NCBI RefSeq assembly: GCF_004010195.1
Contig: NC_057745.1
Span: 8,467,591 to 8,531,590 of the forward strand
DNA: 64,000 bases
Direction: 5' to 3'
Source: Chiloscyllium plagiosum
Taxonomy: Eukaryota
In this document: piece by piece, positions 597 to 62,389 of the stretch
How the letters are laid out: every line of letters begins with the position of its first letter
Position numbering within the stretch: position 1 is the first letter of the stretch
Made by a program: the position numbers and the translations under genes
Notes under the pieces: generated by a model
What the model saw: only the letters and a program-made list of their open reading frames with translations
The model's database searches: none
Told to the model about the DNA's origin: nothing

Positions 597-725
597 GAAA
601 AATGTGGTGCTGGAAAAACACAGCAGGCCAGGCAGCATCCGAGGAACAGGAGAATCGATGTTTTGGGCATAAGCCCTTCTTCAGGAATGAGGCTGGTGTG
701 CCAAGCAAGCTAAGATAAAAGGTAT
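597..725 (-). mobile_element. Penelope-like 3'-end fragment (single arm) with degenerate hammerhead core
   Basis: Same sequence as the arms of the palindromic elements at 10044, 19730, 38257 and 38998; GAAA core mutated to AAAA. Confidence 0.7.
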
Positions 726-8942: not shown

Positions 8943-10142
8943 CTGTAAGCCATAATATTCCTGGTCATCACATGTATGGGACTCTATTATACCAAAACTC
9001 AGCATTATGTATGGGTAATACTTATTCTAATGTTAAAAGGAGCAGATTTGGAACTAAAAGTATTCTTGGACAATTATGTGTTGCGTCTGCGTGATGTGGG
9101 AGCTGTTGGATCCCACCGTGGTTCATACTGGCCACACTTGTAGCAAGTGTTGGTTACTTGAGGAACTTCTGCTCAGGAGTTGATGAGCTGGAGTCTGAGC
9201 TTTGAACATGGCAATTCACCAGGGAGGGATACTGTGCTTCAGGAAGCAGTCATATCTCTTAGGTTAACTACCTCGAATTTGGTCAGGAGTCAAGGACAGA
9301 AGGGTGTGACTACAAGCGAGGCAGGTGGAGGGATCCAGGAAGTGAACCTCAGCCATTGAGCTTGTCTAATAGATTTAAGATTCTTCCCCTGTATGGATGA
9401 GATGGGTGCTGCAGGGAGGATAGGCAAACTGACCACAACGCCATGGTATAGGGAGTTATTCAAGATGGAAAAAAAAAAAGTGGAATGTAGTTGTAATCAG
9501 GGAAGGTGTAGTCAGGGGAATAGACAAAGGTCTCTGTGGGAAGGATCAAGAATCCCAAAGACTGTGTTGCCTGTCTGGTGACTGGGTTCAGGATTAGATT
9601 CCCTACAGTGTGGAAACAGGCCCTTCAGCTCAACAAGCCCACACAGACCCTCAGACAAGTAACCCGGCGTCACGGTGGCTAGCATTGCTGCCTCACAGCA
9701 CCAGGGACCCAGGTTCCATTCCCACCTCTGGTGGAGTTTGCACCTTCTCCCAGTGTCTGTGTGGGTTTCCTCTGGGTGCTCCAGTTTCCTCCCACAATCC
9801 AAAGATGTGCAGGTTAGGTGAACTGGTCATGCTAAATTGCCCATAGTATTAGGTGTATTAGTCAGGGGTAAATATAGGGCAAGGGAATGGGTCTGGGTGG
9901 GTTACTCTTCAGAAGGTCGGTATGGACTTGGGTCAAATGGCCTGTTTCCATACTGTAGAGAATCTAATTAACCCACCCAGACCCACTTCCATCTGACTAA
10001 TGCACCTAACACTATGGGCGATTTAGCCTGGCCAATTCACTTGGAGGAGAAAGTGAGGACTGCAGATGCTGGAGATCAGAGCTGAAAATGTGTTGCTGGA
10101 AAAGCGCAGCAGGTCAGGCAGCATCCACGGAACAGGAGAATC

Positions 10143-10170
10143 GACGTTTCGGGCATAAGCCCTTCTTCAG
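10143..10170 (-). ncRNA. Minimal hammerhead ribozyme core (CTGAAGA-A-GGGC TTAT GCCC-GAAAC-GTC)
   Basis: CUGANGA and GAAA boxes, 4-bp stem II, GUC triplet; activity untested. Confidence 0.65.
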
Positions 10171-10182
10171 GAAGGGCCCTTC

Positions 10183-10210
10183 CTGAAGAAGGGCTTATGC
10201 CCGAAACGTC
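10183..10210 (+). ncRNA. Minimal hammerhead ribozyme core
   Basis: ctgaaga a gggc ttat gccc gaaac gtc. Confidence 0.65.
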
Positions 10211-12789
10211 AATTCTCCTGTTCCCTGGATGCTGCCTGACCTGCTGCGCTTTTCCAGCAACACATTTTCAGCAATTCACTTGACCTGCACATCTTTGGAA
10301 ACTGAAGCTCCCGGAGGAAACCTCACGCAGACACTGGGAGAATGTGCAGTCACCCGAGGCTAGAATTGAACCTAGGTCCCTGGTGCTGTGAGGTAGCAGT
10401 GCTAACCACTGAGCCACCATGCCACTCCTAGGCTAGAGGGGGAAACAGGAAAGATCTAATTGTCAAGATCCACATAGGAACGAAGAACATAGGTAGGAAG
10501 AGGAAAGAGGCTCTGCTGTGGAAAAATGAACAGCTTGGGGCTAAATTAAAAAGCAGAACCAAAAAGGGTAATCATCTTGGGATTACTTTCCGAGCCATGA
10601 CCTAATTGGCACAGGGTCAACAAGATTAAAGAGGTGGTATGGGAGAAATGGATTCAAATCCATGGGATATTAGCACAAATACTGGAGAAGGAAGGAGCTT
10701 TACTTTTTAAAATGGGACAGGCTCCACCTGAATCATGCCAGGATCAGAGTCCTGATGAATTGCATAACTCGGGCCGTGAATAGGGCTTTACACTAAATAC
10801 CCTATAGTGGGGAAAGGGTTGGGCAGAGTGGGAGGGTGGGGCAGGGTGGTCTCGTTACTTGGAAAATTACAAAAATCAGAAGATAAAAGAGAAGATAAGA
10901 TTGCAGGTCAGCACTGGGGTTGATTGTAAATAAAAAAGGACGTGACCAAACACGTGAAGGGCATTGTATCAAGAAACCATAGAAGTGTAGGGAAACTCAA
11001 TAATAGAACAAACTTAAAGGCTTTGTGTCTTAATGCACAAAGCACTCGTAATAAGATAGATGAACTGACAATGCAAATTGAGGTAAATAAAAAGGATCTC
11101 ATAGCCATTATACAAACATGGTCTGGGAACTTACCATTCAGGGATATTTAACATTTTGGAGAGACAAGAGGGATGAAATGGGTGGTGCGGTAGCACTGTT
11201 AGTAAGAAATTAAATAAGGATGATTGAGAGAAATGATCTTGGCTTGGATGATGTACAGTCCCTCAGGGCAGAGGTAATAAACAGCAAGGAAACGAAGGCA
11301 TTGATAGGAATATAGTGTACAGATCCCAAAACAGTAGTCGCACTCTGGGATAGGCTATAAAAATAAATAAATAGGAGGATGCAAGAAGAATACAGGAATA
11401 ATTATGGTGACTTTAATCTTCATGTTGATTGGGTTAATCAAATTGCAAAAGGGTAGTTATGACAGCAAATTCAGAGCGCATTAGGAATAGTTTCCTAGAG
11501 CAAAATGTCATTGAGCCAACCAGGGAACAGGCTGTCCTAGACCAGATAATGGGTAACGAGGCAGGTTTAATAAATGACCCAAGTAAAAGACTGCCTAGGA
11601 GATAGTGATCATAACATGATTAATTTAATATTCTGTTCAAGAGTGAGAAGCCAGTGTTGGGAACTACTGTGTTTAAGTTAAAGAGAAGGTAATTACAATG
11701 AAATGAGGATGGAGCTAGCTAAAATGAATTGGGTGGATGGATCGGCAGGAATGGCAGTAGGTAAACAGTAGCAAATACATGGGGAGTTAATTAATGACTC
11801 TCAGCAATCAATTTGCATAGACATATTGATAGTTTAAGTACTGAGCAAAAAGTTGGCAAATGGAGTATACATGAGGGAAAATGTAAAGTTTTCATTTTGG
11901 AAGGGAGAGCAAAATAACAGAGTCTAAAACAGAAACAGAAGAGAGAAAGCAGAGCAGTGACCTCCATTCTGAAGTTCAGGAGTACTGAAGAAAGGTAGTT
12001 GAACCTGAAAGTTTAACTGCTTTCTTTCCACAAGTGCTGCCAGACCTGCTGAGTTTCTCCAGCTATTTCAGATTTCCTCATCTACAGCGTTTTTGTTTGA
12101 AGAACAGAATATTTAAATGGAGATAAATTACAGAAAGCTGCAATATAAAGGGACATGGGGGTTATTGTGGACAAAACGCAGAAAGCTAGCAAAGGTGGCA
12201 GGTACTCAGGGAGGCTAATGAATGTTTGCCCTCATTTCAACGATGTTGGAGTGTAAGAATAGGGAAGGCTTACCATGTTTATACAAGGTGCTGGTTAGAC
12301 CACACATTGAGTAATGAGCAGTTGTGGTCCCCTTATCATTTCATTGGAGACATTCAGAGAAGGTTCACTAGGATGATGTCTGACATGGAGGGATTGTCTT
12401 ATAGGCAAAGGCTAAATACAGTGGAACACTACTTACTGGAGTTTAAAAGAATGAGAGGTGATCTCATTGAAGCATATAGGATTTTTAAGGGGCTTGACAG
12501 GGTAAATGCTGAGATTTTTCCAAGAGGGGAAACACTTTAGAACCAGATGGTGTAGTCGCAGAATAAAAGGGGCATCAATTTAAGACTCAGGTAACTTGAA
12601 GAAACTGCTTTTCTCAGAAAGTGGAGTGTCTTTGGGACTCCTTGTGACAAACAACTGTAGAGGCTATGTCCTTCTGTATATTTAAGTCTGAGGTCAATAG
12701 ATTCTTGATCAGTCCGAGATTTCAAAGATTATGGGGGAAAAGGCTGGAAAGTAGACATCAGGAGTGTTGGATCACCCTTGATCCTACTA

Positions 12790-17515: not shown

Positions 17516-17645
17516 GTGGGCAAAAGGAAGTACTATAGATGCTGGAGATCAGCCCTTCAGTCCTGGAGGCCTTTTGCCCGAAACATCGATTTTCCTGCTC
17601 CTGAGATGCTGCATGACCTGCTGTGCTTTTCCAGCACCACACTCT
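17516..17645. mobile_element. Internally deleted fold-back Penelope-like terminal element
   Basis: Tail (agatgctggagatcag) plus opposite arm (gcccgaaacatcgatt..); TSD tgataatttca at 17505-17515 and 17646-17656. Confidence 0.65.
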
Positions 17646-18990: not shown

Positions 18991-19544
18991 AGCACCGCTA
19001 TCTGTTACAATTGCTGGCAGGGCTGCTCTTCAAATAAAATCATTAATTATTGCTATTATAATCCTACACAGAAGGAATAAAAAAGGTGATGTCCTTACTT
19101 CTGTGTTTATATCTCACCCTGGCCTGGAGGGGTGTTAAAATTAAAGCGCTGTTGAAGTAGAGTCCCTTCCTCTGGGCTAGAAGGTCGAGGTGTCAGTCTA
19201 GCCTCTGTATGTGATGGAAACTGAGGTGTCATACAGGTTGAATAAAATAAAGCAGTGAATAATTAATAATCAATAATTTTTATCATTCTAATTCTTCTCT
19301 TGAATTGTGTGCGTAAGAAATAAAGGGGATATTGTGGCAAAGTAATACTGTCCCTGCTTCTGGGTTCAAGTCCCACCTGCAATGAAAACATTTCATGACC
19401 TGCCTGAACAGGTCGATAAAGTTTTTTGTTTTAAAATGAGGGATGTAAACTTGATGCTGTCAAATTAGACAAAAACAAACAGTGGAGAATGGGAAGCAGG
19501 TTACATTTTGAGTACCAGTGCAATTTCCGGAGATCAGTTAGCAA

Positions 19545-19729
19545 GAAATAAAAACAGGACGTGCTGGTTTGGCAGCATCTGTGGAGAGAGGAATAGAGTT
19601 TATTGTTTAGGCCTGTGATCTGAAACATTAACTCTTTCTCTCTCCACAGATAGGTGTCACATCTGACCTGCTAAGGGTTTCCAACATTTTCTGCATTTGT
19701 TTCAGATCCCCAGTATCCATAGTACTCTT
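19545..19729. mobile_element. Older fold-back Penelope-like terminal element (family 2)
   Basis: Inverted ggcagcatctgtggagagag / ctctccacaga arms; relatives at 11926-12100, 21325-21470, 25435-25770 and 28367-28575. Confidence 0.55.
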
Positions 19730-19952
19730 TGAGGAGAAAGTGAGGTCTGCAGATGCTGGAGATCAGAGCTGGAAATGTGTTGCTGGAAAAGCGCAGCAGG
19801 TCAGGCAGCATCCAGGGAACAGGAGAATAGACGTTTCGGGCATAAGCCCGAAGAAGGGCTTCCTGAAGAAGGGCTTATGCCCGAAACGTCGATTCTCCTG
19901 TTCCCTGGATGCTGCCTGACCTGCTGCGCTTTTCCAGCAACACATTTCCAGC
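19730..19952. mobile_element. Fold-back Penelope-like terminal element; intact hammerhead core at 19863-19890 (+)
   Basis: Inverted arms; TSD tccatagtactctt at 19716-19729 and 19953-19966. Confidence 0.85.
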
Positions 19953-21127: not shown

Positions 21128-21972
21128 AAATGTCAAGGGAATTTTAGACAGCAGCTGTTCAAGGGGAGAGATGTCATCTAAAAAATGGAACTTTGATCTC
21201 CTGTGGTTACAGAGATAATGAGGGGCTGATTAGTGACTCTCAGCAGAAAACTATCTCCTGTAGGTTGTGTTGCAGACTGTAGTCATATGTAAGTTGAAAG
21301 AAAGGTAGTTCTGACTAAAAGGCAGTTCATGTTTTGAGCATAGTGACCCTTCTTTAGAACAGGGTTAGGGTTCTAAAGAAGGGTAATTGCATTTCGAATG
21401 TTAACTCTGCTTTCTCTCCACAGATGCTGCCAGACCTGCTGAGTTTCTCCATCAATTTCTAATTTTGTTAGAGTCCCTGATTGCTGAAAATGTCATCCAT
21501 TGCTGGGGAAAACTGGATAAATTCCTTTGAGTCAAATGCAGAACCAATAATCTCTAAATAACCACTCAACTACATTACTGAATTCACCCACCTGAATAGC
21601 CTCAATGTTTTACAATATGTTCATCACAGCCAAGCCAAAGACTGGCTCATACATTTTTTATTTTCTCATTTCTAAGCTCTGTGTATGTTTGTCACACTAT
21701 TATATTTTCTTATGTTTTAGTAACTAATAAGCTAAGATTTTAATTCAAGAAAGCTTGGCTTAATTGGATGCTTTTAAAACAGAAATACATTTTTGTTGGG
21801 AAATGAAATTCGTAAGGGAATGGATTCTTTTATAAAGTAACCCTGTTGTCAGCAACCAAAGGAGGGGCTGTGTAAAGAAAGAGAACCACTTCATCGCATA
21901 GCCCCCCCCAGAGCGTAGCCATTTCAGGGAATCTCATCCAGAATCATAACCGATTGATGTCACTTGCCCGTA

Positions 21973-28366: not shown

Positions 28367-28575
28367 AAACCCAAAAGAACTGCAGATGTTGGAAACCAGA
28401 AACAAAACTAGAAATTGCTGGAAAAAAACTCTAAGTCTGGCAGCATCTGTGGAGAGTTAAAGTTTTGGGTTCAATGACCTTTCTGCAGAAGTTCTGAACT
28501 CAATGTCAACTCTGATTTCTCCCCATTGATGCTGCCAGACCTGTTGAGGTTTTCCAGCAATGTGTGTTTCTGTTT
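28367..28575. mobile_element. Older fold-back Penelope-like terminal element (family 2)
   Basis: ttgctggaaaa..tctggcagcatc / gatgctgccaga..ttttccagcaa inverted arms plus ctgcagatgttgga tail. Confidence 0.6.
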
Positions 28576-29317: not shown

Positions 29318-29895
29318 TTATGGTCTCAATTTCAGTGCTGGGTGCGTCAAAGTTAAAATTGACACAACTGATGAAATAAGACCACAAAGACTCACCACTC
29401 CAGGATTGATTCTGAAAATGCCGAGCTTGTCTAAGGGGAGGGATAGATCACAGAGGTTTTTAATGAGGTCGAGTAATACAGGGGGGTTGTTTTTAAGGCT
29501 TTGATAAAGCAACATGAAGAAATCTTCAGAACTGATCTTTAATGCCCAGCCAAAGTCTCTTTGCACATGACTGGTGTTCAGGTGGTTTATGGATTTGCAC
29601 TGTTGGCCCTTTTGGGCCAGTGCTTCTTCTCTCAGAAGCAGGGTAATCTCATAGACATCTCTGCTCAGACTGATAATCAATGAGAAGAAATAGTAGTGGT
29701 TGCACCGCTTATTCCATTTCTCCTTGTCAATACCACCAAGTCCCACTGCTCCCATCCAGAGAATATTATCGCAAATGAAGTACACAGCCCGACTGAGAGG
29801 AATGATGGTAAGGCAAAATCGAAGAATTGGGTCCGAAAGGTGTATGTTTCTTCTGGCTGCCTGAACTGCATCCACTGTGTTGCCCAGTCGGAATA
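29318..29895 (-). CDS. PEX11A: Peroxisomal biogenesis factor 11 alpha, exon 3 (LFRLGNTVDAVQAA...HPALKLRP*)
   Basis: FRLGN, YFICDNILW, LSRDVYEI, PPVLLDLIKNLCDL..PLDKLG motifs; tttcag acceptor; 578 nt, phase 1. Confidence 0.96.
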
Positions 29896-30823
29896 CTGAA
29901 ATAAAGCAGAGATTTAATACTGTAACAGCTTTTACCTGTTGACAACAGTTGAAATATAATTAAATTGTTCTGGATGAGGCACCAGCAATTTAACTAGAAA
30001 CAAGTTCTCTCTCTCTCTGGCCAAACTTTCAAATGGTAAATCTCCTCTATCTTGGGGGAATCACCCCATTGATTCTGCACATCATGTAGTCACTGATATA
30101 CAAGGCTGAGGTTGCTATGAATGCGAAGAGCAGGAAGAAAACAGACTTCATTCTCCTGCAACAGGAATCGGTTGTTGTCTAAAGGTGGTGCTGCAGGATG
30201 AACAACAAAATCAATTTTATACTCACCTAGGAGGCTCACCCTGCCCATTTTGCCAGTAGTCTCCCAATCACACCCAGGCAAAACAAAAACTGATCCTCAG
30301 TGTTGGCCTCCCTGACGCCACTCCTGATGCGGGCATCTACTCGCTGCCTTTATCAGGCTCCACTTTCACTCTTGGCTTTTGTACCATTGCAACTGGGGCC
30401 AAAGCCTCTGCTTTGCCTCTCTGACTCCTCATGTGTGGCTTCAGCACTGATGTGGATGTCACAATGCATGGAAGATATTGGTGTGTTGTCAGAGCATATG
30501 CATCTGTGCGCACATAGTGATCCAACTGCACTATGGACAATCAAATCAAATACATAAACAGCCTCTACCAACTAGCTACATGTAACCATTTAAAAAAGGC
30601 AGGTATGATCCCATTGTAACAGAATTCACAGATGGAAATATACCATTAGAAATGCTGCTTACAGAAAATGGAGCAGACTATTTTGTGCCAACATGAAAGG
30701 ACAATCTTATTTACTTACAGCATAATCAATTTCTATTGTATTTACAAATATTGCTTGGAAAATTTTCATTATTAGAATTGAATAGAGAATTTTCTCCCAA
30801 AACTACACAAACATGAATCCCGT

Positions 30824-31120
30824 GGGCGGCACGGTGGCACAGTGGTTAGCACTGCTGCCTCACAGCACCAGAGACCCGGGTTCAATTCCCGCCTCAGGCG
30901 ACTGACTGTGTGGAGTTTGCACATTCTCCCAGTGTCTGCGTGGGCTTCCTCCCACAGTCCAAAGATGTGCAGGTCAGGTGAATTGGCCATGCTAAATTGC
31001 CCGTAGTGTTAGGTAAGGGGTAAATGTAGGGGTATGGGTGGGTTGCGCTTCGGCGGGTCGGTGTGGACTTGTTGGGCCGAAGGGCCTGTTTCCACACTGT
31101 AATGTAATCTAATCTAATCT
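30824..31120 (+). mobile_element. Young HE1-like tRNA SINE
   Basis: A box TGGCACAGTGG, B box GGTTCAATTCC, (AATCT)n tail. Confidence 0.9.
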
Positions 31121-32853: not shown

Positions 32854-33489
32854 TTTAGTTTCATTTCAGAATAGAGGTAAATCGGATAACTGTCACTTGG
32901 TAGCACTGTCACTTCTGAAACATAACAGTTAGAGGTTCAATCCTTGTTATAGGCTTGGGAACAAAATCTGGGCTGATATTATCCTGCATTACTGAAAAAA
33001 GTGCTACATTCTCAAAGCAGCTGTCCTATGGAAGTAATTTAAACAGAATTCTTTTCCACGTATTCAGGTGGATGCAACATCAGTCGTTCATTTGCTATTT
33101 GTGGAATCATGCTGAGTACACACTTGGTGCCATAGTTCCCAATGGATCCCCATGACTGCACTTCAAAAAAAGTGATCATAACATAAGAAAAGTATGATTA
33201 GGTTCTTTTTCCAATCAATAGAAAAAAAACTTTTCTATGTATCAGGACAAACAAAAACAAACTAAATGCATGCAATTGCTTGGCACTTTTATACTACAAG
33301 CTGCTGTTAGCTTATCTATAAGACTTAGCCCTAGGTCTACTTGGACTGGGTTCCACAGGCTGTGTTAGAGCTCTGCTCCCTGTCTATTTACTTCTCACAG
33401 ATGACTAGCAAGAAGTGTCCCTTCAGAATCAATCCTGTTTTTCAGTAAGACAAGTAAAATTAGACACTGATGACTAAGAAGGGGTGGAG

Positions 33490-36400
33490 AAGACAAACTA
33501 AGAGCTTAGTAAAAAATAAAAAGAGAGAGGCATACATAAGGTTTAGGAGACTGAAGCCAGACACAGCCCTCAGAAAATACAAAGATAGCAGGAAAGAACT
33601 CAAACATGCATCAGGAGGGCCAAAGGGAGCCTTGAAATGTGCAGGTGGAGACACTGCTGGGGCCTTGTACGAAATCTTCATATATGCTTTAGCCACATCA
33701 GAGGACTACAGAATAGCCAATGTTGATTTGTTGTTTAAGAAGAACAACAGGAATAATCCAGGAAATTATAGGATAGTGAGCCTAATGACAGTGGAAGGGA
33801 AGTTATTAAGGATTCTTAGGGATAGAATTTCTTCAAATTTGGAAAAATACAGTTATTAGTGCTGGGCAGCAATGCTTTGAGAGGGGAAAGTCATGTCTCA
33901 CAAACTTGATTGAGATTTTTGAGGAAGCACCAAAAATGATTGATGAGGGCAAGGTGGTAGATGTTGTCTATTTGGACTTTAGTAAGGCCTTTGACAAGGT
34001 CCTTTATGGTTTTGGCAGGCTGATACAAAAGGTGAAGTCACATGAAATCCACAGTGAGGTGGTATGGCAGATACAAAACTGGCTTAGTCACAGAAGACAG
34101 TAGCGATGAAAGGTCCTCAGTGCTGGGATCCCGGTTGTATAACAAACAAAATATGATTTGGAGGAGAATATACGTGGACTGATGCTATACCTCTAGTACG
34201 TCAGATGGATCAGTCTTTGTCCAATGTGTGCAGGAGGGTTTCCTGATACAGTATGTTGAAGGGCCGACAAGACGGGAGGCCACCCTCAGTCTAGTGCTTA
34301 GTAATGAACCGGGCCAGGTGTTTGATTTAGTAGTAGGTGAGCACTTTGGAGAGAGTGACCATAATTCGGTTATGTTTAATTTAGCAATGGAAATGAATAG
34401 GTACATGCCACAGGGCAAGAGTTATTGATGGGGCAATTATAATGCAATTAGGCAAGACTTAGGATGCATAGAATGGAGTAGCAAAATGCAGGGAATGGGG
34501 ATAATCGAAATGTGGAGCTGGTTTAAGGAACAGATAGTGTGTGTCCTTGGTAGGTATGTCCCTGTCAGGCAGGGAGGAAGTGATAAGGTAAGGGAACCGT
34601 GGTTAAGGACAGAAATTGCATCTCTTGCTAAGCGGAAGGAGGCTTATGTGACGATGAGATGAGATGGTTCAGATGAGATGATGGAGAGTTACAGATTAGC
34701 CAGAAAGGATTTGAAGAGAGATAAGAAGAGCAAAGAGAAGACATGAGCAGTCTTTAGCAGGTAGAATAAAGGAAAACCCTAAAGCTTTCTATAGGTACGT
34801 GAAGAATAAAAGGATGACTAGGTTAGGAATAGGGCCAGACAAAGAGAGAAGTGGAAAGTTGTGTGTGGACTCTGTGGAGATTGGAATGGTGCTAAACCAA
34901 TATTTCTTATCGGTTATCACTCAGAAAAGGAGAATACTGTAGAGGAGTAGAATGAGATACCAGATATTAGACTAAAAAGGATAGAGGTTAGTAAGTGTTA
35001 TCAATTCTAGAAGGAGCGAAAGTAGACAAGACCTCTGGGCTGGATGGGAATTAACTGAGGATTCTTTGGTAAGCTAGGGAGGTGGTGTTGGAGCCTTTGG
35101 CTTTGATCTTTGTGTCATCGTTGTCTACAGGTTTAGTACCACAGAACTGGAGGATTGCAAATGTTGTGCCCTTATTCAAGGGCAGTGGAGATGTTCCAGG
35201 TAATTATAAACCAGTGAGCCTTACGAGGAAAGGTTTTGGAAAGGATGATAAGAAATAGGATTCATAATTATCTAGCAAGCAACAATTTTATTACAGATAG
35301 TCAACATGGTTTGTCAAGGGCAGCTCATGTTTCACAAACCTCTGAGTTTTTTGAGAAGGTGACCAAGCGTGTGGATGAGGGTAGGGCAATTGACGTGGTG
35401 TACATGGAATTCAGTAAAGCCACACGGTAGCCTGCTGGAGAAAATGCAAAGGCATGAGATTGAGGATGATTTAGCAGTTTGGATTAGAAACTGGCTTTCT
35501 GTAAGAAGGCAGAGAGTGGCAGTTGATGGAAAATATTCAGACTGGAGTCCGGTTACTAGTGGTGTGACACAAGGATCTGTTTGGGACCACTGCTGTTTGT
35601 CATTTTTATAAATGACTTAGACGCAGATATAGGTGGATGGTTTAGTAAGTTTGCAGATGAAACTAAAGTCGGTGGAGTAATGGACAGTGTAGAAGAATGT
35701 TGCAGGTTGCAGGGGGGCTTGGATAAACTGCAGAATTGGACTGGAAGGTGGAAAATGGAGTTCAATGCTGATAAATATGAGGTGATTCAATTTGGGAAGA
35801 ATAACTGGAAGCTTTAATTTTGGGTCAATGGAAAGATTCTTGGTAGTGTGGATGTGCAGAGGGATCTTGGTGTCCATGTACACAGATCACTGAAAGTTGC
35901 CACCCAGGTTGGTAGTGCTGTTAAGAAGGCATACGGTGTGTTAGGTTTCTTTGGTAGAGGGATTGAATTCAGGAGCCATAATGCCATGCTGCAACTATAC
36001 AAACTACTAGTACGGCCGCACTTTGAATATCATGTACAGTTCTGGTCGCCCCATTACAGAAAAGATGTGGAAGCATTGGAAAAGATGCAGACGAGATTTA
36101 CCAGAATGTTGCCTTGTCTGGAGGGAAGGTCTTAGACAAAACGCTGAGACACTTGGGTCTGTTCTCATTGGAAAGAAGGCAGCTAGAGGGGATTTGATAG
36201 AGACATACAAGATGATCAGAGGATTAGATAGGGTAGACAGTGAAAGTATTTTTCCTAAGATGATGAGGACAGCTTGTACATGGGGGCATAGCTACAAATT
36301 GAAGGGTGATAGGATTTAAGATAGATGTCAGAGGCAGGTTCTTTATTCAGACTGTTAAGGGCATGGAATACCCTGCCTGCCAATGTAGTTAACTCAGCCA

Positions 36401-38256: not shown

Positions 38257-38773
38257 AGTTGAAAAGTGTGGTGCTGGAAAAGCGTAGAAGGCCAGGCAGC
38301 ATCAGAGGAGCAGGAGAATCAACGTTTCAGGCATAAGCCCTTCTTCAGGAATGAGGCTGGTGTGCCATGCGGGCTGAGATAAAAGGTGGCTGGATGGGTG
38401 GGTGGGAGTTTGCAGGAGGGGCACTGGGAATACAATAGATGGAAGGAGATGAGGGTGAGGGTGATGGTGATTGGCCAGAGAGGTTGGGAAGAAAATTGCA
38501 GGTCAAGAGGGTGGTGCTGAATTCGGGTGTTATCTCAGCCCCAACCCCCGAATTCAGCACCGCCCTCTTGACCTGCAATCTTCTTCCCGACCTCTCCGCC
38601 CCCACCCCGTCTCTGGCCTATCATCCTCACCTNNNACCAGCCTCATTCCTGAAGAAAGGCTTATGCCCGAAACGTCGATTCTCCTGCTCCTCGGATGCTG
38701 TCTGGCCTGCTGCACTTTTCCAGCATAATTTTCAACTCTGGTCTCCAGCATCTGCAGTCCTTACTTTCTCCTC
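38257..38773. mobile_element. Long (about 517 bp) fold-back Penelope-like element; hammerhead-like cores at 38321-38348 (-) and 38649-38676 (+)
   Basis: Inverted arms centred near 38535; 17-bp TSD ctttatttccataccag at 38240-38256 and 38774-38790. Confidence 0.85.
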
Positions 38774-38997
38774 CTTTATTTCCATACCAGGCAACGCCCT
38801 AGTAAATCTCCTCTGTATCCTTTCCAAAGCTTCCACATCTTTCCTATAATGCATTGACCAGAACTGTATGCAATACTCCAGTGCAGCCTTACCAGTGTCT
38901 TGTACAGTTGAAGCATGACCTTGTGTCTCCAAAACTCAATCTCCCTACTAATAACGCCAACACACCATATGCCTTCTTAACAACATTATCAACTTGG

Positions 38998-39217
38998 ATG
39001 GAGAAAGTGAGGACTGCAGATGCTGGAGATCAGAGCTGAAAATGTGTTGCTGGAAAAGCGCAGGTCAGGCAGCATCCAAGGAACAGGAGAATTGACGTTT
39101 CGGACATAAGCCCTTCTTCAGGAATTCCTGAAGAAGGGCTTATGCCCGAAACGTCGATTCTCCTGTTCCTTGGATGCTGCCTGACCTGCTGCGCTTTTCC
39201 AGCAACACATTTTCAGC
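38998..39217. mobile_element. Fold-back Penelope-like element; hammerhead cores at 39094-39121 (-) and 39128-39155 (+)
   Basis: Palindrome centred on gaattc; TSD tatcaacttgg at 38987-38997 and 39218-39228. Confidence 0.85.
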
Positions 39218-42200
39218 TATCAACTTGGGTGGCAACTTTCAGGGAACTGTGCACCTGGACACCAAGATCTCTCTGTTCATCTACACTGCCAAGAATTTTA
39301 CCATTAGCCCAGTACTCTGCAGTCCTGTTATTTCGTCCAAAGTGAACTACATCACAGTTTTCCACATTAAACTCCATTTGCCACTTTTCAGCCCAGCACT
39401 GCATCTTATCTATGCCCCTCTGTAACCCACAACATATTTCTGCACTATCCACAAATCTGCCTCCCTTCGTGTCATCTGGAAATTTACTAACCCATCCTTC
39501 TACGCCCACATCCAGATCATTTATAAAAATGACAAACAGCAGTGGTCCCAAAACAGATCCTTACGGCACACCACTGGTAACGGAGCTCCAGGATGAACAT
39601 TTCCAATCAACCACAACACTGTCTTCTTTCAGCTAGCCAATTTCTGATCCAAACTGCTAAATCACCTTTAATCCCAAAACTCCGTATTTTGTGCAATAGC
39701 CTACCGTGTGGAACCTTATCAAACACCTTACTGAAGCCCATATACACCATATCAACCGCTTTACCTTCATCCACCTGTTTTGTCACCTTCTCGAAGAACT
39801 CAATAAAAGTTAGTGAGGCACGACCTACCCTTCACAAGACCATGTTGACTATCCCTAATTAAATTATTCCTTTCCAGATAATTGTAAATCCTATCTCTTA
39901 CAACCTTTTCCAACATTTTACCCACAACTGAAGTAGGGCTCACTGGCCTATAATTACCAAAGTTGTCCCGACTCTCCTTCTTAAACATTTGCTATCCTCC
40001 AGTCTTCTGGCACTACTCCCGTCGACAATGGTGACATAAAGATCAAAGCCAAAGGCTCTGCAATCTCCTCCCTGGCTTCCCAGTGAATCAGAGGACAAAT
40101 CCCATCTGGCCCAGGGGTCTTATTTATTTTCAGATCTTCCAAAGTTGCTAAAACCTCCTCTTTCTCAACCTCAATCCCATCAAACTTGTAGCCTGTATCT
40201 CCGTATTTTCACTAACATTGCCTTTTTCCAATGTGAATACTGACGAAACGTATTCGTTAAGCACATCCCCTATGTCTTCAGATTCCAAACACAACTTCCC
40301 ACTACTTCTTTGATTGGCCCTAATCTTACTCTAGTTATTCTTTTAGGATGCATATACCTATAAAAGGCCTTAGGGTTTTCCTTGATCCTATCCACCAACA
40401 ACTTCTCACGTCCTCTCCTGGCTCTTTTTACCCCTCTCTTTAGATCTTTTCTGGCTAACAGACAACTCTCAAGCCCCCTAACTAAGCTTTCACGCCTCAT
40501 CCTCACATAAGACCTCTTCTTTGTCTTGTCAAGAGCTTCAACTTCTTCAGTTCCCTCTCTTGACAAATACCTCCCTGCATGATAGATACATACTTATCAA
40601 TGACCCACAGTAGCTTTTTCTTGAATAAGCTCCACATTTCAAGTGTGTCCATCCCCTGCAGTTTCCTTCCCCATCCCATGCATCTAATCACATCATAACT
40701 GCCTTTCCCCCAGTTATACCTCTTTCCATACAGTATATACATATCTCTGCCCATTGCTATTGTAAATATAACCAAATTATGGTCACTATCGCCAAAATGC
40801 TCACATACCTCCAAATCTAACACCTGGCCGGGTTCATTCCCCAGTACCAAACCCAATATGGCATCACCCCTTGCACACATTGTACAAAAACTGACCCATC
40901 TAAATTACTTGAACTATAGTATTCCCAGTCAATATTGGCGAAATTAAAGACCCCATAACAACTACCCTGTTACTCTCGCTCCTATTGAGAATCATCTTTG
41001 CTATCCTTTCCTCTACATCCCTGAAACAATTTGGAGGCCTATAGAAAACTCCCAACAGTGTGACCTCTCCTTTCCTGTTTCTAACCTCAGTCCAAACTAC
41101 CTCAGTGGAGGAGTCCTCAAACGTTATCTCAGCTGCTGGGATACTACCCTTGATTAACAATGCCGCAACCCCATCTCTTTTACCATCTTCTCTGTTCTTG
41201 CTGAAACATCTAAATCCTAAAATCTACAACAACCATTCCTGTCCTCCCTCTAGCCATGTCTCTGAAATGGCCACAACAAAAATCCCAGGCACCAACCCAT
41301 GCTGCAAGTTCACCCACCTTATTCCAGATGCTCCTGGCACTGAAGTACACACATCTCAGACCAACACCCTGATTGCCGGTGCCCTCTCATGACCTTGTAA
41401 ACCTATCCCTGACCTCATTACCGACAACCTCCTGTACACTGGAACTACAATTCAGGTTCCCATCCCTCTGCTGCATTAGTTTAAACACCCCCCAACAAAG
41501 AGTATTAGCAAACTTCCCGTGCCCCAGGATATTGGTACTCCTCTGGTTCAAATGAAGACCATCCTGTTTGTAGAGGTCCCACCTTCCACAGAAAAAGCTC
41601 CAGTTATCCAAGAATACAAAACCCTCTCTCCTGCACCATCCTTGCAGCCACGTGATCAGCTCCACACTCTCCCTGTTCCTCGCTTCACTAGCATGTGGCA
41701 TGGGCAACAAACCAGAGATAACAATGCTGTTTGTACTAGTTCTAAGCTTCCATCCTAGTTCCCTGAATTTCTGTCTTAGATCCCCAACTTTCTTCCTACC
41801 TAGGTTGTTGGTGGCTACGTCAACATGTCTTGGGGCTTCTCCCCCTCAAAGATCCCGAAAATAAGATCAGAGACATCACGACCCCTGGCACCTAGGAGGC
41901 AACACATCAATCATGAGTCTCTCTCGTTCCCACAAAACCTCCTATCTGTCGCCCTAACTATGGAGACCCCAATGATTAAAGCTTTGCTCCTCTTCCCCCT
42001 TCCCTTCTGAGGAACAGGGACAGACTCTGCGCCAGAGACCTGTGTCCCATTGTTTACACCTGGTAAATCGTTCCCTCCCCCCACAACAGTATCCAAAATG
42101 GTATACTTGTTGTTGAGGGGAACCGCCACAGGAGATCCCTACACTACCAGCTGGTTCCCTTTCCTATCCCTGATGGTAACCCATCCACCTTCTTCACGTG

Positions 42201-43948: not shown

Positions 43949-44913
43949 GTTTTGTTTTCGACTCTCTTCAGTGATTTTATAGTAGGGTGCTTAACTGTTG
44001 AACTTTAGCGGTAAACCCATTTTCAGCTGTACTTTTAAAAACAAAAAAAATGAATAATTACATTATACTTGTTATGATCCCAGCTGATTATAATACTGGA
44101 CACGTCAGATGTGAAAGTGAAACCTGGTTTGATAGATAAGTTTTATTTTTCTTTTCTATTTGTATAGGATGGTGGTTTAGAAATATATTCATACAAGTCT
44201 ACCAGTATACTTAAAGAGCAAAGTTTATTTTGCAAAATAAACATTAAAAAACTGTAAAGAAGATAACTTAGAAAAGTCTTATTATAAACAATAAGAAGAT
44301 TCAGTCGTTTTCCCAGTGTTACCTTTCACAGAAGCTGAAACCCAATCAAGTGTCACCCCTATCTTTACACCTTAACTTCTTACTCAACAAACTCTTTCTA
44401 GCCACACTTGCTGCTGAAACAGCTCAAGACTTCTTCCCAGTTCTGATGGATTGGCGATTTCTGCAAACTCTCAATCCAGACACATCTACAAACTAAAACC
44501 TGAACTTCTTCTGAACTCAACCGGCTAGTGACCATCCATATCTGTAGATCATAAAACTTAACTTTGTATACATTCAGCATTTAGCTCGAGTCATTTGGCT
44601 TAAGTCATAGCCTTTCCAAGAAATAATAAGTTCATCATTCCAAATGACTTTTTGAGCCTCTCTTAGAAAAGCAAGTCACTTTCATGGAATTGACGATTAA
44701 AGTACATTTCTTTCCTTCGGTTTTGGGATCCAAGTTCATAAATATTCCTTTGCTCACCTGCGCACACTCATGGAAGATTTGACATTTGTAAATCTGAAAA
44801 TCAATTTTAAAGGGAAACTTGAAGTTTAACAAGTGCAATTTCAAGCCAATTTCAGACTCAACTTGTCAATGGTGCAGAAATTCTATTCCCTAACCTCAGT
44901 TGACAATCAAGTG

Positions 44914-46034
44914 GATCTTATGGAATACAGGGAGAACTAGCCATTTGGATACAGAACTGGCTCAAAGGTAGAAGACAGATGGTGGTGGTGGAGGGTTGTT
45001 TTTCAGACTGGAGGCCTGTGACCAGTGGAGTGCCACAAGGATCGGTGTTGCGTCCTCTACTTTTTGTCATTTACATAAATGATTTGGATGCGAGCATAAG
45101 AGGTACAGTTAGCAAGTTTGCAGATGACACCAAAATTGGAGGTGTAGTGGACAGCGAAGAGGGCTACCTCAGATTACAACAGGATCTTGACCAGATGTGC
45201 CAATGGGCTAAGAGGTGGCCAATGGAGTTTAATTCAGATAAATGCGAGGTGCTGCATTTTGGGAAAGCAAATCTTAGCAGGACTAATACATTTCTTGATA
45301 AGCTCCTAGGGAGCGTTGCTGAACAAAGAGACCTTGGAGTGCAGATTCATAGCTCCTTGAAAGTGGAGTCACAGGTAGATAGGATAGTGAAGGCGACGTT
45401 TGGTATGCTTTGCTTTATTGGTCAGAGTATTGAGTATAGGAGTTGGGAGGTTATGTTGTGGCTATACAAGACATTGGTTAGGCCGCTGTTGAAATATTGC
45501 GTGCAATTCTGGTCTCCTTCCTATCGGAAAGATGTTGTGAAACTTGAAAAGGTTCAGAAAAGATTTACAAGGTTGTTGCCAAGGTTGGAGGATTTGAGCT
45601 ACAGGGAGAGGCTGAACAGGCTGGGGCTGTTTTCCCTGGAGCATCGGAGGCTGAGGGGTGACCTTATAGAGGTTTACAAAATTATGAGGGGCATGGATAG
45701 GGTAAATAGGCAAAGTCTTTTCCTTGGGGTCCAGGAGTCCAGAACTAGAGGGCATTGGTTTAGGGTGCGAGGGGAAAGATATAAAAGAGACCTACGGGGC
45801 AACGTTTTCACACAGAGGGTGGTACATGTATGGAATGAGCTGTCAGAGGAAGTAGAGGAGGCTGGTACAATTGCAACACTTAAAAGGCATTTGGATGGGT
45901 ATATGAATAGGAAGGGTTTGGAGGGATATGGGCCGGGTGCTTGCAGGTGGGACCAGATTGGGTTGGGATATCTGGTCGGCATGGACGGGTTGGATTGAAA
46001 GGTCTGTGTACATGCTATAAATCTCTATGACTCT
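44914..46034 (+). mobile_element. Young 5'-truncated CR1 LINE with uninterrupted 339-aa RT C-terminal ORF (44979-45998)
   Basis: [27 protein letters not shown]; possible TSD aagtg. Confidence 0.95.
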
Positions 46035-50819: not shown

Positions 50820-51830
50820 GCTACATATCAATATAGCACTCCCAGGTCTGAGCTCCCATCCTTGCTGTGTCTTCATCATTCCCCAAGATCTCACCTGCAC
50901 TGAGGATGAATGTTTAATCCTCAGGAAAGGCCTCACCTTTATCCCTTTACTGTCCCAGATTAATGAGTTTGACATACGCCGCGACCTTGAACGTTTCTTC
51001 CGCCACCTCCGCCTCTGTGCCCACTTTTTCAACTAAGACACCCGCCCACACACTGAGGACCCCTTCTTCTGCCTCCAACACACCCCATCCACCTGGACAC
51101 CTAGTGCTGATCTGTTACCCACCCTTGATCTCCTAATTTCAAACTGCTGCTATGACATTGACCGCCTCAACCTGTCCACCCCCACAAACCCACTCCAACC
51201 TCCCGCCCTCACAACACGCAGCCCTCCACTCCAACCCCAACATCACCATCAGACCCACAGCCAAGTGGGGCGCACCAACCTCTACACTGCTAAAGCCAAC
51301 TCGCAAACACCTCCTCTTACTGTCCTCTTGATCATGACCTCACCTCCCATCACCAAACCATCCTATCCCAGACCATCCATAACCTCACCTCTGGGGATCT
51401 CCCATCCACAGCCTCCAACCTCATTGTCCGTGAACCCCGCACCGCCTGATTCTATCTCCTTCCCACGACTGACAAACCTGACTGCCACGGTCGACCCATT
51501 GTTTCAACCAGCGCCTGTCCCACCAAACTCACCTCCTCCTACCTCGACACCATCCTGTTCCCCCTTAGTCCAGGAACACCCCACCTACGTTCAGGACACC
51601 ACCTTCACCTCCTCCAAGATTTTTGTTTCCCCGACCCCCAACACCTCATCTTCACCATGGACAGCCAGTCCCTGCACACACTGATCCGCCACGATGAAGA
51701 TCTCCAAGCCCTCCGTTTCTTCTTCTCACGCCGTCCCAACCAGTACCCTTCCACCGACACCCTCAACTGCCTAGCTGAACTGGTCCTCACCCTCAACAAC
51801 TTCTCCTTCCAATCCTCCCACTTCCACACT
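50820..51830 (+). mobile_element. Penelope-like retroelement RT remnant
   Basis: C-rich strand; LRKGLTFIP..RRDLERFFRHLRL, FTMDSQSLHT.I.H, LAELVLTLNNFSF. Confidence 0.8.
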
Positions 51831-52309: not shown

Positions 52310-52980
52310 CAGACCACCGATTCCTGCACAACAAACCTAAACAGGAAGACATAACAAGCCCAGAGACTCTAGTCACCCTGCCATACATCAAAGACACCTC
52401 GGAGATGACAACCGGACACTCCGGGCCCTAGGCATCACGGTAGCCTACAAACCTATCACCATACTGAAACAGCTCCTGATGAATTTAAAAGGACCCCATA
52501 CCAACAACCAGCAGAATGAAAGTCATAAACAAAATACCCTGCAAGGACTGCAACAACATTACATTGAACAGATGGGCAGGAAACTAGCAACAAGAGTACA
52601 TGAGCTCCAACTAGCCACCAAAAGACATGGGCAACTATCACTGGTATCCATACACACAGACGAAGATGGTCATCCGTTCGACTGGGACAATACATCCATC
52701 CTGGGACAGGCTAAACAAAGACACGCATGGGAAATCCTAGAGGTCTGGCATTCAAACCAGAACTCCATTAACAAACAGAGATTTTGACCCCATTTACCAA
52801 CCTCTCAGAAACACAACTGGAAATGGCATCACCCACCACGACAAACCCAGACAGATAACTAGCAAGCAGGAAGAACACCAGCGCTTCACCGGAGACTTGC
52901 TGATGATGTTACCTAGCATAGTGACGAAACGTCTGAGAGCAAATCTACCAGCTCAGTGAGCAAACTTACAACTTGATCCA
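52310..52980 (+). mobile_element. Penelope-like retroelement 3' remnant (thumb + GIY-YIG endonuclease + pLTR)
   Basis: VTLPYIK, KIPCKDC..YIEQMGRKLATRVHEL, H.FDWDNTSIL. Confidence 0.85.
52896..52937 (+). ncRNA. Minimal hammerhead ribozyme
   Basis: CTTG-CTGATGA-T-GTTAC ctagcata GTGAC-GAAAC-GTC-TGAG: core boxes, 5-bp stem II and wobble stem I. Confidence 0.7.
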
Positions 52981-61774: not shown

Positions 61775-62193
61775 TAGATTAGATTAGATTTAGATTACAT
61801 TACAGTGTGGAAACAGGCCCTTCGGCCCAACAAGTCCACACCGAACCGCCGAAGCGCAACCCACCCATACCCCTACATTTACCCCTTACCTAACACTACG
61901 GGCAATTTAGCATGGCCAATTCACCAGACCTGCACATCTTTGGACTGTAGGAGGAAACCGGAGCACCCGGAGGAAACCCACGCAGACACGGGGAGAACGT
62001 GCAAACTCCACACAGTCAGTCTCCTGAGGCGGAAAATGAACCCGGGTCTCTGGCGCTGTGAGGCAGCAGTGCTAACCACTATGCCACCATGCCGGCCACA
62101 AACTCCACACAGTCCACTGCAAACTCCACACAGTCAATTCCCGTCTCAGGCGACTGACTGTATGGAGTTTGCACGTTCTCCCTGTGTCTGCGT

Positions 62194-62224
<31 letters not shown>

Positions 62225-62389
62225 ACAGTCCAAAAGATGTGCAGGTCAGGTGAATTGGCCAAGCTAAATTGCCCGTAGTGTTAGGTAAGGGGTAAATGTA
62301 GGGGTATAGATGGGTTACGCTTCGGCGGGTCGGTGTGGACTTGTTGGGCCAAAGGGCCTGTTTCCACACTGTAATGTAATCTAATCTAA
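61775..62389. mobile_element. Head-to-head pair of young HE1-like SINEs (61775-62095 minus; 62136-62389 plus, 5'-truncated)
   Basis: Near-identical inverted copies with tails pointing outward. Confidence 0.88.

What the first reader, a model, noticed from the sequence alone, without database searches (positions are those of the whole stretch)
10044..10271. Small TSD-flanked palindromic elements carrying a hammerhead ribozyme core on each strand
Seen: a 228-bp fold-back with CTGAAGA-A-GGGC-TTAT-GCCC-GAAAC-GTC on both strands (10143-10170 minus, 10183-10210 plus), no real ORF and an 11-bp TSD. Near-identical independent insertions occur at 19730-19952 and 38998-39217, a longer one at 38257-38773, and relics at 17516 and 597. 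Established: Penelope-like elements carry minimal hammerheads with a loop-less palindromic stem III (ACGT) that need dimerisation, and an extra A after A9 is tolerated in some natural hammerheads. Inference: this is a recently active non-autonomous, retrozyme-like population whose transcripts would be rod-like and ribozyme-bearing in either polarity. Caveats: stem I is weak, and in a fold-back RNA the core may be sequestered as dsRNA.
Basis: partly seen in the sequence, partly recalled or inferred. Interest (0 to 1): 0.75.

Follow-up and report, generated by a model that had tools for sequence, protein, structure and literature searches.

The report
Fold-back Penelope stubs in shark DNA
This 228-base mirror-image insert is one of thousands of short stubs of what is very likely a Penelope-type jumping gene in shark-like DNA; the stubs mostly start at one base just before the hammerhead ribozyme motif, so they are likely two short DNA copies that ran off the front of the element's RNA and were joined head to head, not a separate ribozyme-driven RNA replicon.

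Summary
The anatomy (inverted pLTR, one-sided 37-nt tail, TSD, minimal hammerhead) matches published Penelope-like element (PLE) insertions, and opposite-strand hammerhead pairs are already in print. In public contigs thousands of insertions exist. Their 5' ends pile up 0-4 nt upstream of the core, mode on the A of an initiator-like TCATTCC, often followed by an extra C on the cDNA strand, and not at the predicted ribozyme cut. Centres differ between copies, and in two copies each arm holds sequence the other lacks. Best reading: both target strands prime reverse transcription at the two tail-defining sites, the cDNAs run off the capped RNA start and are joined. In fold-back RNA the core is predicted sequestered (22-45 kcal/mol). 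The same layout occurs in non-shark animal contigs. The scan has noted this many times on other DNA (45 findings by words; the same cap reading elsewhere in this genome). Cleavage, start site and the shark ORF link are untested.

The parts
10033..10043 (+). Copy A, left target-site duplication (11 bp), inside a SINE-like host repeat
   Evidence: empty-site overlap in paralogue 30975-30985
10044..10080 (-). Copy A, 37-nt one-sided tail
   Evidence: read/contig ends pile at 10044-10047
10044..10173 (-). Copy A, tail-bearing arm (pLTR-like segment)
10143..10170 (-). Minimal hammerhead core; predicted cut between 10143 and 10142
10174..10179 (.). Copy A centre, 6-nt filler GGGCCC
10180..10271 (+). 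Copy A, tail-less arm
10183..10210 (+). Minimal hammerhead core; first stem I pair lost
10272..10282 (+). Copy A, right target-site duplication
19730..19952 (.). Copy B, 14-bp TSD; tail-bearing arm stops in stem II (no minus-strand core), tail-less arm reaches the common 5' boundary; 10-nt templated-looking filler
38998..39217 (.). Copy C, 11-bp TSD, in a CR1-type LINE relic; centre GGAATTCC reads as two boundary-length arms overlapping by AT
38257..38773 (.). Copy D, long fold-back of another subfamily, 17-bp TSD, tail on the right arm, arms reach about 180 nt upstream of the core; NNN at 38633-38635
38348..38354 (-). Initiator-like TCATTCC (A at 38352); modal 5' boundary of family copies in public contigs
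17516..17645 (.). Copy E, 11-bp TSD; left arm is a 37-nt tail only, right arm runs from the boundary region to the tail border
598..722 (-). Copy F, single tail-less arm with about 35 nt of upstream sequence, decayed core, no TSD found
28376..28563 (.). Older, related-family fold-back with one-sided tail and centre near the core's 5' edge
21330..21455 (.). Older related stub with fold-back centre just 5' of a decayed core
11935..12088 (.). Older related stub with short fold-back centre 5' of a core with stem II AGGT/ACCT

Best explanation
These are short, dead-end insertions of what is very likely an abundant Neptune-type Penelope-like retrotransposon, likely built afresh at each landing from two short cDNAs joined head to head. 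Shown: TSD-flanked fold-backs, one arm with a 37-nt tail, different centres, and a genome-wide 5' boundary just upstream of the hammerhead core. Inferred: the element's protein cuts both target strands and primes reverse transcription at the two internal start sites that define the tail (as shown in vitro for the anole PLE, PMC11167929). When this happens on the pLTR at the front of the transcript, each cDNA runs off the capped RNA 5' end after about 95 or 130 nt. The two cDNA 3' ends are then joined by microhomology or a few added bases. The template was uncut by the ribozyme; the second core is a by-product of the inversion and is predicted inactive in fold-back RNA.
For: Architecture matches published PLE insertions: inverted pLTR, 31-bp tail, 9-10-bp TSD (PMC3846280 passages); 30-40-bp tail (PMC8557442). 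Same core pattern in 120 metagenome loci: 30 of 120 hold a PLE ORF match and in 26 of those 30 it ends 59-169 nt upstream of the core on the same strand; 21 of 120 are fold-back-like. Boundary: loose ends with long mixed flanks at 38348-38352 are among the six top rows in 4 of 4 runs (X13 214+300+317 contigs, X1 123+269, X15 24+36+45, X21 91 reads), mode 38352 in the three contig runs; depth falls about 10-19-fold past 38356 in X1, X13 and X21. 38352 is the A of the only initiator-like match upstream of the cut in D's left arm; such matches cover 1.3% of positions. The first loose letter after 38352 is C in 4 of 4 runs and in 4 of 4 shown joints from that place. Two templated arms: in B and E each arm holds sequence the other lacks, and E's left arm is exactly a 37-nt tail; contig joints 10079-10170 and 10080-10165 on opposite strands repeat the E layout. 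Centres of A, B, C differ.
Against: No shark contig or protein links this pLTR to an ORF (negative or spurious); the PLE relic at 50869-51824 is not joined to it. The depth drop could partly reflect divergence of copy D's upstream part or other subfamilies, and summed word depth is no copy number. G is excluded as first loose letter by construction, and only the top rows of each table were shown (430 and 618 loose-end rows hidden). No start-site data: table 6 was empty in both lays. B's and E's asymmetry could come from deletions at a palindrome centre after insertion. Arm-sharing of copy-specific letters is thin (1 column in B, 1 in C). A fixed boundary is also what a short non-autonomous source would give.
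Confidence: 0.62

Rival explanations
1. A discrete non-autonomous mini-retroelement (about 130 nt, or the whole fold-back) with its own transcript, mobilised in trans by the PLE protein; the first reader's idea without the circular-RNA step.
For: Fixed 5' boundary and great excess of short over long copies. A, B and C form a tight subfamily that is 1 nt shorter than D and F, which closes the frame that opens from the AUG in loop II. Family reads occur in RNA: 2,772 of 12,955,460 reads in X21. Non-autonomous PLE derivatives exist (PMC8557442 passages; bioRxiv 10.64898/2026.07.22.740005).
Against: Centres are not shared between copies; short copies lack the two bases upstream of the initiator-like A; RNA reads lie in both orientations and mostly run on into mixed flanks (share 0.95), as read-through would; the loop-II AUG is not shown to start an ORF.
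Confidence: 0.15
2. Same origin, but the second arm is made by snap-back: one cDNA folds on itself and primes its own copy (described for R2 insertions, PMC11371274; antisense self-priming proposed for PLEs, PMC3846280).
For: Near-symmetric centres in A, C and D; arms of one copy share letters; D's tail-bearing arm is the longer one, as snap-back allows.
Against: In B and E neither arm is a subset of the other; the tail-less arms of A-D stop within a few bases of the tail border, which snap-back does not explain.
Confidence: 0.13
3. The boundary is set by something other than a transcription start: an RT stall at the edge of the folded hammerhead, a processing site, or a splice junction at helix I as reported for Drosophila virilis Penelope (PMC4209133).
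For: Ends coincide with the 5' strand of stem I; older families in the window and a non-shark family also end within about 20 nt of the core.
Against: RT meets structure from its 3' side, whereas the ends lie past the whole motif; the extra C and the initiator-like match point to a cap; a spliced RNA would carry a fixed upstream exon, but flanks are mixed (agreement about 0.3).
Confidence: 0.07
4. Retrozyme-like rod RNA that self-cleaves in both polarities and replicates through circular RNA.
For: Intact core on both strands in A and C; family variation shown in reads concentrates at N7 and loop II, as expected of a motif under constraint in source elements.
Against: One transcript holds one sense core, paired to its complement (P of G10.1-C11.1 pair 0.0 in 5 of 5 fold-back strands against 0.94-0.98 in single arms); no tandem sense cores in these copies; ends are not at the cut; minimal hammerheads were inactive as monomers and weak as dimers (PMC4209133), and 8 of 9 Xenopus dimers did not cleave (bioRxiv 10.64898/2026.07.22.740005).
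Confidence: 0.03

Closest known systems
Insertions of endonuclease-bearing Penelope-like elements with inverted pLTR, tail and TSD (Pen2a_Av and others, PMC3846280; general scheme in PMC8557442)
   Same: Head-to-head inverted pLTR, palindromic junction, 30-40-nt tail on one side only, TSD of 9-17 bp, initiator-like motif in the pLTR.
   Different: Here both arms are usually only the last 95-130 nt with no ORF, in thousands of copies, and the 5' ends pile at one base; this boundary was not found described in my searches.
Minimal hammerheads of metazoan PLE pLTRs (PMC4209133)
   Same: No loop III, palindromic ACGU, extra nucleotide between 9 and 10.1, G10.1-C11.1; that paper already notes pairs on opposite strands 100-700 bp apart in Schistosoma.
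   Different: Stem II is 4 bp and stem I only 2-3 pairs here; the two cores are 12 bp apart or closer; cleavage untested.
Poseidon_Ac (PAc) in vitro system (PMC11167929)
   Same: Two internal RT start sites that define the tail, both target strands extended, uncut RNA as main template.
   Different: Poseidon clade in a lizard; inverted products and cap run-off were not described in the parts I read.
Non-LTR retrozymes (bioRxiv 10.64898/2026.07.22.740005; PMC7229834 seen as listing only)
   Same: Non-coding, pLTR-related, type I hammerhead.
   Different: Retrozymes are defined as head-to-tail arrays with at least two sense ribozymes; these copies are dispersed head-to-head pairs with one sense core per strand.
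L1 twin priming (recalled, no call) and R2 snap-back junctions (PMC11371274 passages)
   Same: Inversions made at integration and joined by microhomology.
   Different: Here the two priming sites are fixed and 37 nt apart, and the arms usually overlap on the template.

Membership tests
EN+ Penelope-like element insertion | Inverted 5'-truncated pLTR adjacent at the 5' end | tested here: met
   5 of 6 loci have an inverted arm
EN+ Penelope-like element insertion | 30-40-nt tail at one end only | tested here: met
   37 nt in A and E; one-sided in A-E
EN+ Penelope-like element insertion | Target-site duplication | tested here: met
   11, 14, 11, 17, 11 bp at 5 of 6 loci; empty-site paralogues for A and C
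EN+ Penelope-like element insertion | pLTR contiguous with an RT + GIY-YIG ORF | tested here: inconclusive
   Not shown for the shark family; shown for the same core pattern in 26 of 120 non-shark loci
Neptune/Nematis clade | CX2-5CxxC linker before GIY-YIG in the partner ORF | tested here: inconclusive
   Present in shark proteins P0033 and P0027 related to the window's relic, but that ORF is not linked to this pLTR; no tree built
Minimal type I hammerhead | Conserved core CUGANGA, GAAA, UH, extra nt 9/10.1, palindromic 15.2-16.2 | tested here: met
   features as listed in PMC4209133
Minimal type I hammerhead | Stem I of 4-5 bp | tested here: not met
   2-3 of the first 4 pairs in shark copies, 1-2 in A+ and C-; relatives have paired, covarying stem I
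Minimal type I hammerhead | Covariation in stem II | tested here: inconclusive
   None within the family among 40 variant rows shown (55 hidden); across families the fourth pair is paired in 49 of 66 contexts against 27 shuffled, with related sequences
Minimal type I hammerhead | Self-cleavage after GUC | not testable with these tools
   Needs in vitro assay; copy ends do not pile at the cut in shown rows
Non-LTR retrozyme | Head-to-tail array with at least two sense hammerheads | tested here: not met
   All window copies are head-to-head or single; some head-to-tail joints exist elsewhere in contigs
Non-LTR retrozyme | Circular RNA product | not testable with these tools
   Only a poly(A) single-cell run had reads on the element

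The most novel reading that the evidence does not exclude
The young A/B/C subfamily is a true non-coding mini-retroelement: a capped RNA of about 130 nt from its own initiator, carrying a hammerhead and the two tail priming sites, that is copied in trans from both target strands and has outnumbered its coding parent by more than tenfold; a PLE counterpart of a SINE, with fold-backs as its standard product, and with parallels in non-shark animals.
Probability: 0.15. Interest if true: 0.62.

Novelty: new variant of a known kind. Interest (0 to 1): 0.33.

Why it matters
How PLEs form inverted ends is described as unresolved (PMC8557442, PMC3846280). Thousands of short natural junctions with two fixed 3' ends and one fixed 5' end give direct predictions: the transcript starts at the edge of the hammerhead, the ribozyme does not cut the template, and both target strands are primed. 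These can be tested with the existing in vitro PLE system and cap mapping. As a mobile ribozyme RNA the finding is weak; for annotation, these stubs look like MITEs or miRNA hairpins and should be masked as PLE ends.

Tried and rejected
No whole genome is held for this window, so no genome-wide BLAST. Rfam: 0 hits at gathering score; MIR6136, RRE and other sub-threshold hits are generic hairpin matches, rejected. Run search: no RNA holder listed; X22 had 0 reads laid, no test; no place of many molecule starts or ends in either lay. ORF link: tblastn of 42 proteins and short blastp against 157 proteins gave no significant match to copy D's upstream part; the 31-aa pLTR frame found 2 proteins, one a chance repeat, one a 96-aa protein ending in the pLTR frame, so the loop-II AUG as ORF start is unsupported. 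Pfam found nothing on the two PLE relics. The pairwise table failed (0 columns) and was redone. In one search, 5 rows with failed local alignment (value 0) were dropped, and family F4 and F6 were uninformative. A DNA-transposon (MITE) reading was rejected: the ends are unequal and TSD length varies 11-17 bp. Seven literature searches found no paper on shark fold-back stubs or on a cap-coincident boundary; Repbase, Dfam, subscription papers and the preprint's supplements were not seen and may hold this family.
Full report
Setting. The window is vertebrate DNA with a PEX11 frame at 29321-29959 and a CR1-type RT at 44904-45995 (CR1 label recalled). A retroelement relic has its best named relatives in Chiloscyllium, Stegostoma and Rhincodon, so the host is shark-like.

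Observation. Copy A (10044-10271) is a fold-back with an exact 11-bp TSD and a hammerhead core on each strand. Five sister loci exist: B 19730-19952, C 38998-39217, D 38257-38773, E 17516-17645, F 598-722. Five of six have TSDs (11, 14, 11, 17, 11 bp). The flanks of A and C map onto another copy of the host repeat with an 11-bp overlap, so these are independent insertions. A strict core descriptor gives 7 hits in the window, 6 from this family, and 0 in 200 resamples. A, B and C arms differ at 1-4 of 77-82 columns. Three older related stubs also fold back just 5' of a decayed core.

What it is. The combination of inverted pLTR, one-sided 30-40-nt tail and TSD is the published insertion pattern of endonuclease-bearing PLEs (PMC3846280, passages; PMC8557442, passages; PMC8969392, passages). 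The core fits the minimal hammerhead of metazoan pLTRs, including the extra base after A9, and that paper already mentions pairs on opposite strands 100-700 bp apart (PMC4209133, parts 1-2 of 4). I could not join this pLTR to an ORF in shark sequence. The same core pattern was found in 120 metagenome loci that look like animal host DNA. In 30 of 120 there is a PLE ORF match, and in 26 of these 30 it ends 59-169 nt upstream of the core on the same strand; 21 of 120 are fold-back-like, 11 with the centre gap at most 60 nt, two of which look like one insertion. In these relatives stem I covaries (pair 2 paired in 60 of 66 distinct contexts against 36 shuffled; pair 3 in 51 against 27) and so does the fourth pair of stem II (49 against 27); the sequences are related, so these are not probabilities. 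Shark proteins related to the window's relic carry the CX2-5CxxC linker of Neptune/Nematis elements. PLE origin is therefore very likely, Neptune type likely.

Abundance and ends. Laid on A's tail-bearing arm, 83,055 (X2) and 80,997 (X13) contigs matched; the three tail-end rows alone hold 2,286 and 2,653 contigs with long mixed flanks (lower bounds, 618 rows hidden). Laid on D's left arm, which includes about 180 nt of upstream sequence, loose ends with mixed flanks pile at 38348-38352 in 4 of 4 runs, with the mode at 38352 in X1 (269), X13 (317) and X15 (45); in X21 that row has 91 reads and two other rows with uniform flanks are larger. A further row at 38343 (270 and 354 contigs) reads as an N7 variant that runs about nine more letters to the same boundary. 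Summed depth falls from 7.9M to 0.42M (X1) and 7.3M to 0.72M (X13) across the boundary; this is no copy number and D is diverged, but the step is sharp. No shown row lies at the predicted cut, about 30 nt downstream. Position 38352 is the A of TCATTCC, a full match to the initiator consensus (recalled), which covers 1.3% of positions. The first loose letter on the cDNA strand is C in 4 of 4 runs and in the 4 shown joints from 38352, 3 of 6 shown joints from the same boundary read TC. G is excluded there by construction, but AT-rich flanks would favour A or T. An extra C opposite the cap is recalled behaviour of reverse transcriptases. In one non-shark family 11 rows end 12-21 nt upstream of the core, 5 at 3-11 nt (possibly other subfamilies), 6 at 110 or more, none between, 1 failed; two other families show the same tendency more weakly and one is spread.

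Mechanism. For the anole PLE, both target strands are cut and extended, RT starts at two internal sites whose spacing is the tail, and uncut RNA is the main template (PMC11167929, parts 1-2 of 4). Applied here (inference): one cDNA starts at the tail end, one at the tail border, both run to the RNA 5' end, and their 3' ends are joined. C's centre reads as two boundary-length arms overlapping by AT. In B the tail-bearing arm stops 11 nt short of the other; in E it is only the 37-nt tail while the other arm covers the rest, and contig joints 10079-10170 and 10080-10165 repeat that layout. One arm cannot then be a copy of the other, which argues against simple snap-back (known from R2, PMC11371274 passages) unless centres were deleted later. 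Copy-specific letters shared by both arms are few (one column each in B and C).

Ribozyme. In a single arm stem II forms (probability 0.94-0.98); in 5 of 5 fold-back strands it does not, and opening the core costs 22-45 kcal/mol. Because arms diverge from the centre, the complement is always made first. Read variants shown fall at N7, loop II and CpG positions, with a minor A15.1 change and no compensatory pair (40 rows shown, 55 hidden): consistent with constraint on the motif in source elements, not with activity in stubs. RNA reads exist (2,772 of 12,955,460 in X21, both orientations, mostly running into mixed flanks; X22 none), as expected from read-through. Retrozymes are defined as tandem arrays (bioRxiv 10.64898/2026.07.22.740005, parts 1-3 of 5; supplements not seen), which these are not.

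Results against my reading: no direct start-site data; no shark ORF link; a 1-nt difference closes the loop-II AUG frame in A/B/C, which would fit a non-autonomous subfamily if that AUG were the start; a joint between the boundary and a position 2 nt past the predicted cut recurs in both lays (10173-10140, 38352-38318), which may be stem I microhomology or a minority of ribozyme-cut templates.

Prior notes. The scan holds 45 findings with these words in at least 9 genomes and several notes from this genome with the same cap run-off reading. I recorded the boundary and cap idea before seeing them; the test on B and E followed one of them. They are unreviewed and are not counted as support.

Verdict. 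Real, recent and abundant, but a short form of a known PLE insertion pattern. The fixed 5' boundary and twin-primed look are useful, testable clues that seven searches did not find in print. Interest 0.33.

Noticed in passing
window 50869-51824 (+): Broken PLE RT N-terminal relic, 74% identical over 179 aa to a Chiloscyllium protein (P0001); candidate partner clade, not linked to a pLTR here.
   Followed up: partly
window 52341-52975 (+): 3' end of a different PLE-like element with an intact minimal hammerhead at 52900 (5-bp stem II GTTAC/GTGAC); family assignment recalled, not tested.
   Followed up: partly
window 21359-21371: The centre of an old fold-back stub holds a telomere-repeat-like filler (AGGGTTAGG); one case only.
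   Followed up: no
window 19610-19729: Copy B landed directly at the 3' end of an older related stub, and another lies at 19519-19597 on the minus strand; possible preference for PLE ends.
   Followed up: no
window 33464-36122 and 38774-41845: Two long LINE-like relics in inverted orientation (72-85% alike); copies C and D both inserted into the second one.
   Followed up: partly
window 61790-62384: Inverted pair of SINE-like copies, 95% complementary over 152 nt, 291 nt apart.
   Followed up: no
joints 10173-10076/10077 and 10173-10045: Head-to-tail joints of the short unit exist in contigs; the tail end CTC joined to ATTCC would rebuild the initiator-like motif, so tandem units could be transcribed.
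   Followed up: no
L015 1642-1722, L018 3476-3564, L028, L035, L093, L103, L117: Short head-to-head hammerhead fold-backs of the same layout in non-shark animal-like contigs.
   Followed up: partly
window 29321-29959 (-): PEX11 coding frame (PF05648, E 1.7e-40); position of the stubs relative to its introns not worked out.
   Followed up: no
P0159 residues 72-95: A 96-aa database protein ends in the pLTR-derived frame, probably a gene call running into such a stub.
   Followed up: partly
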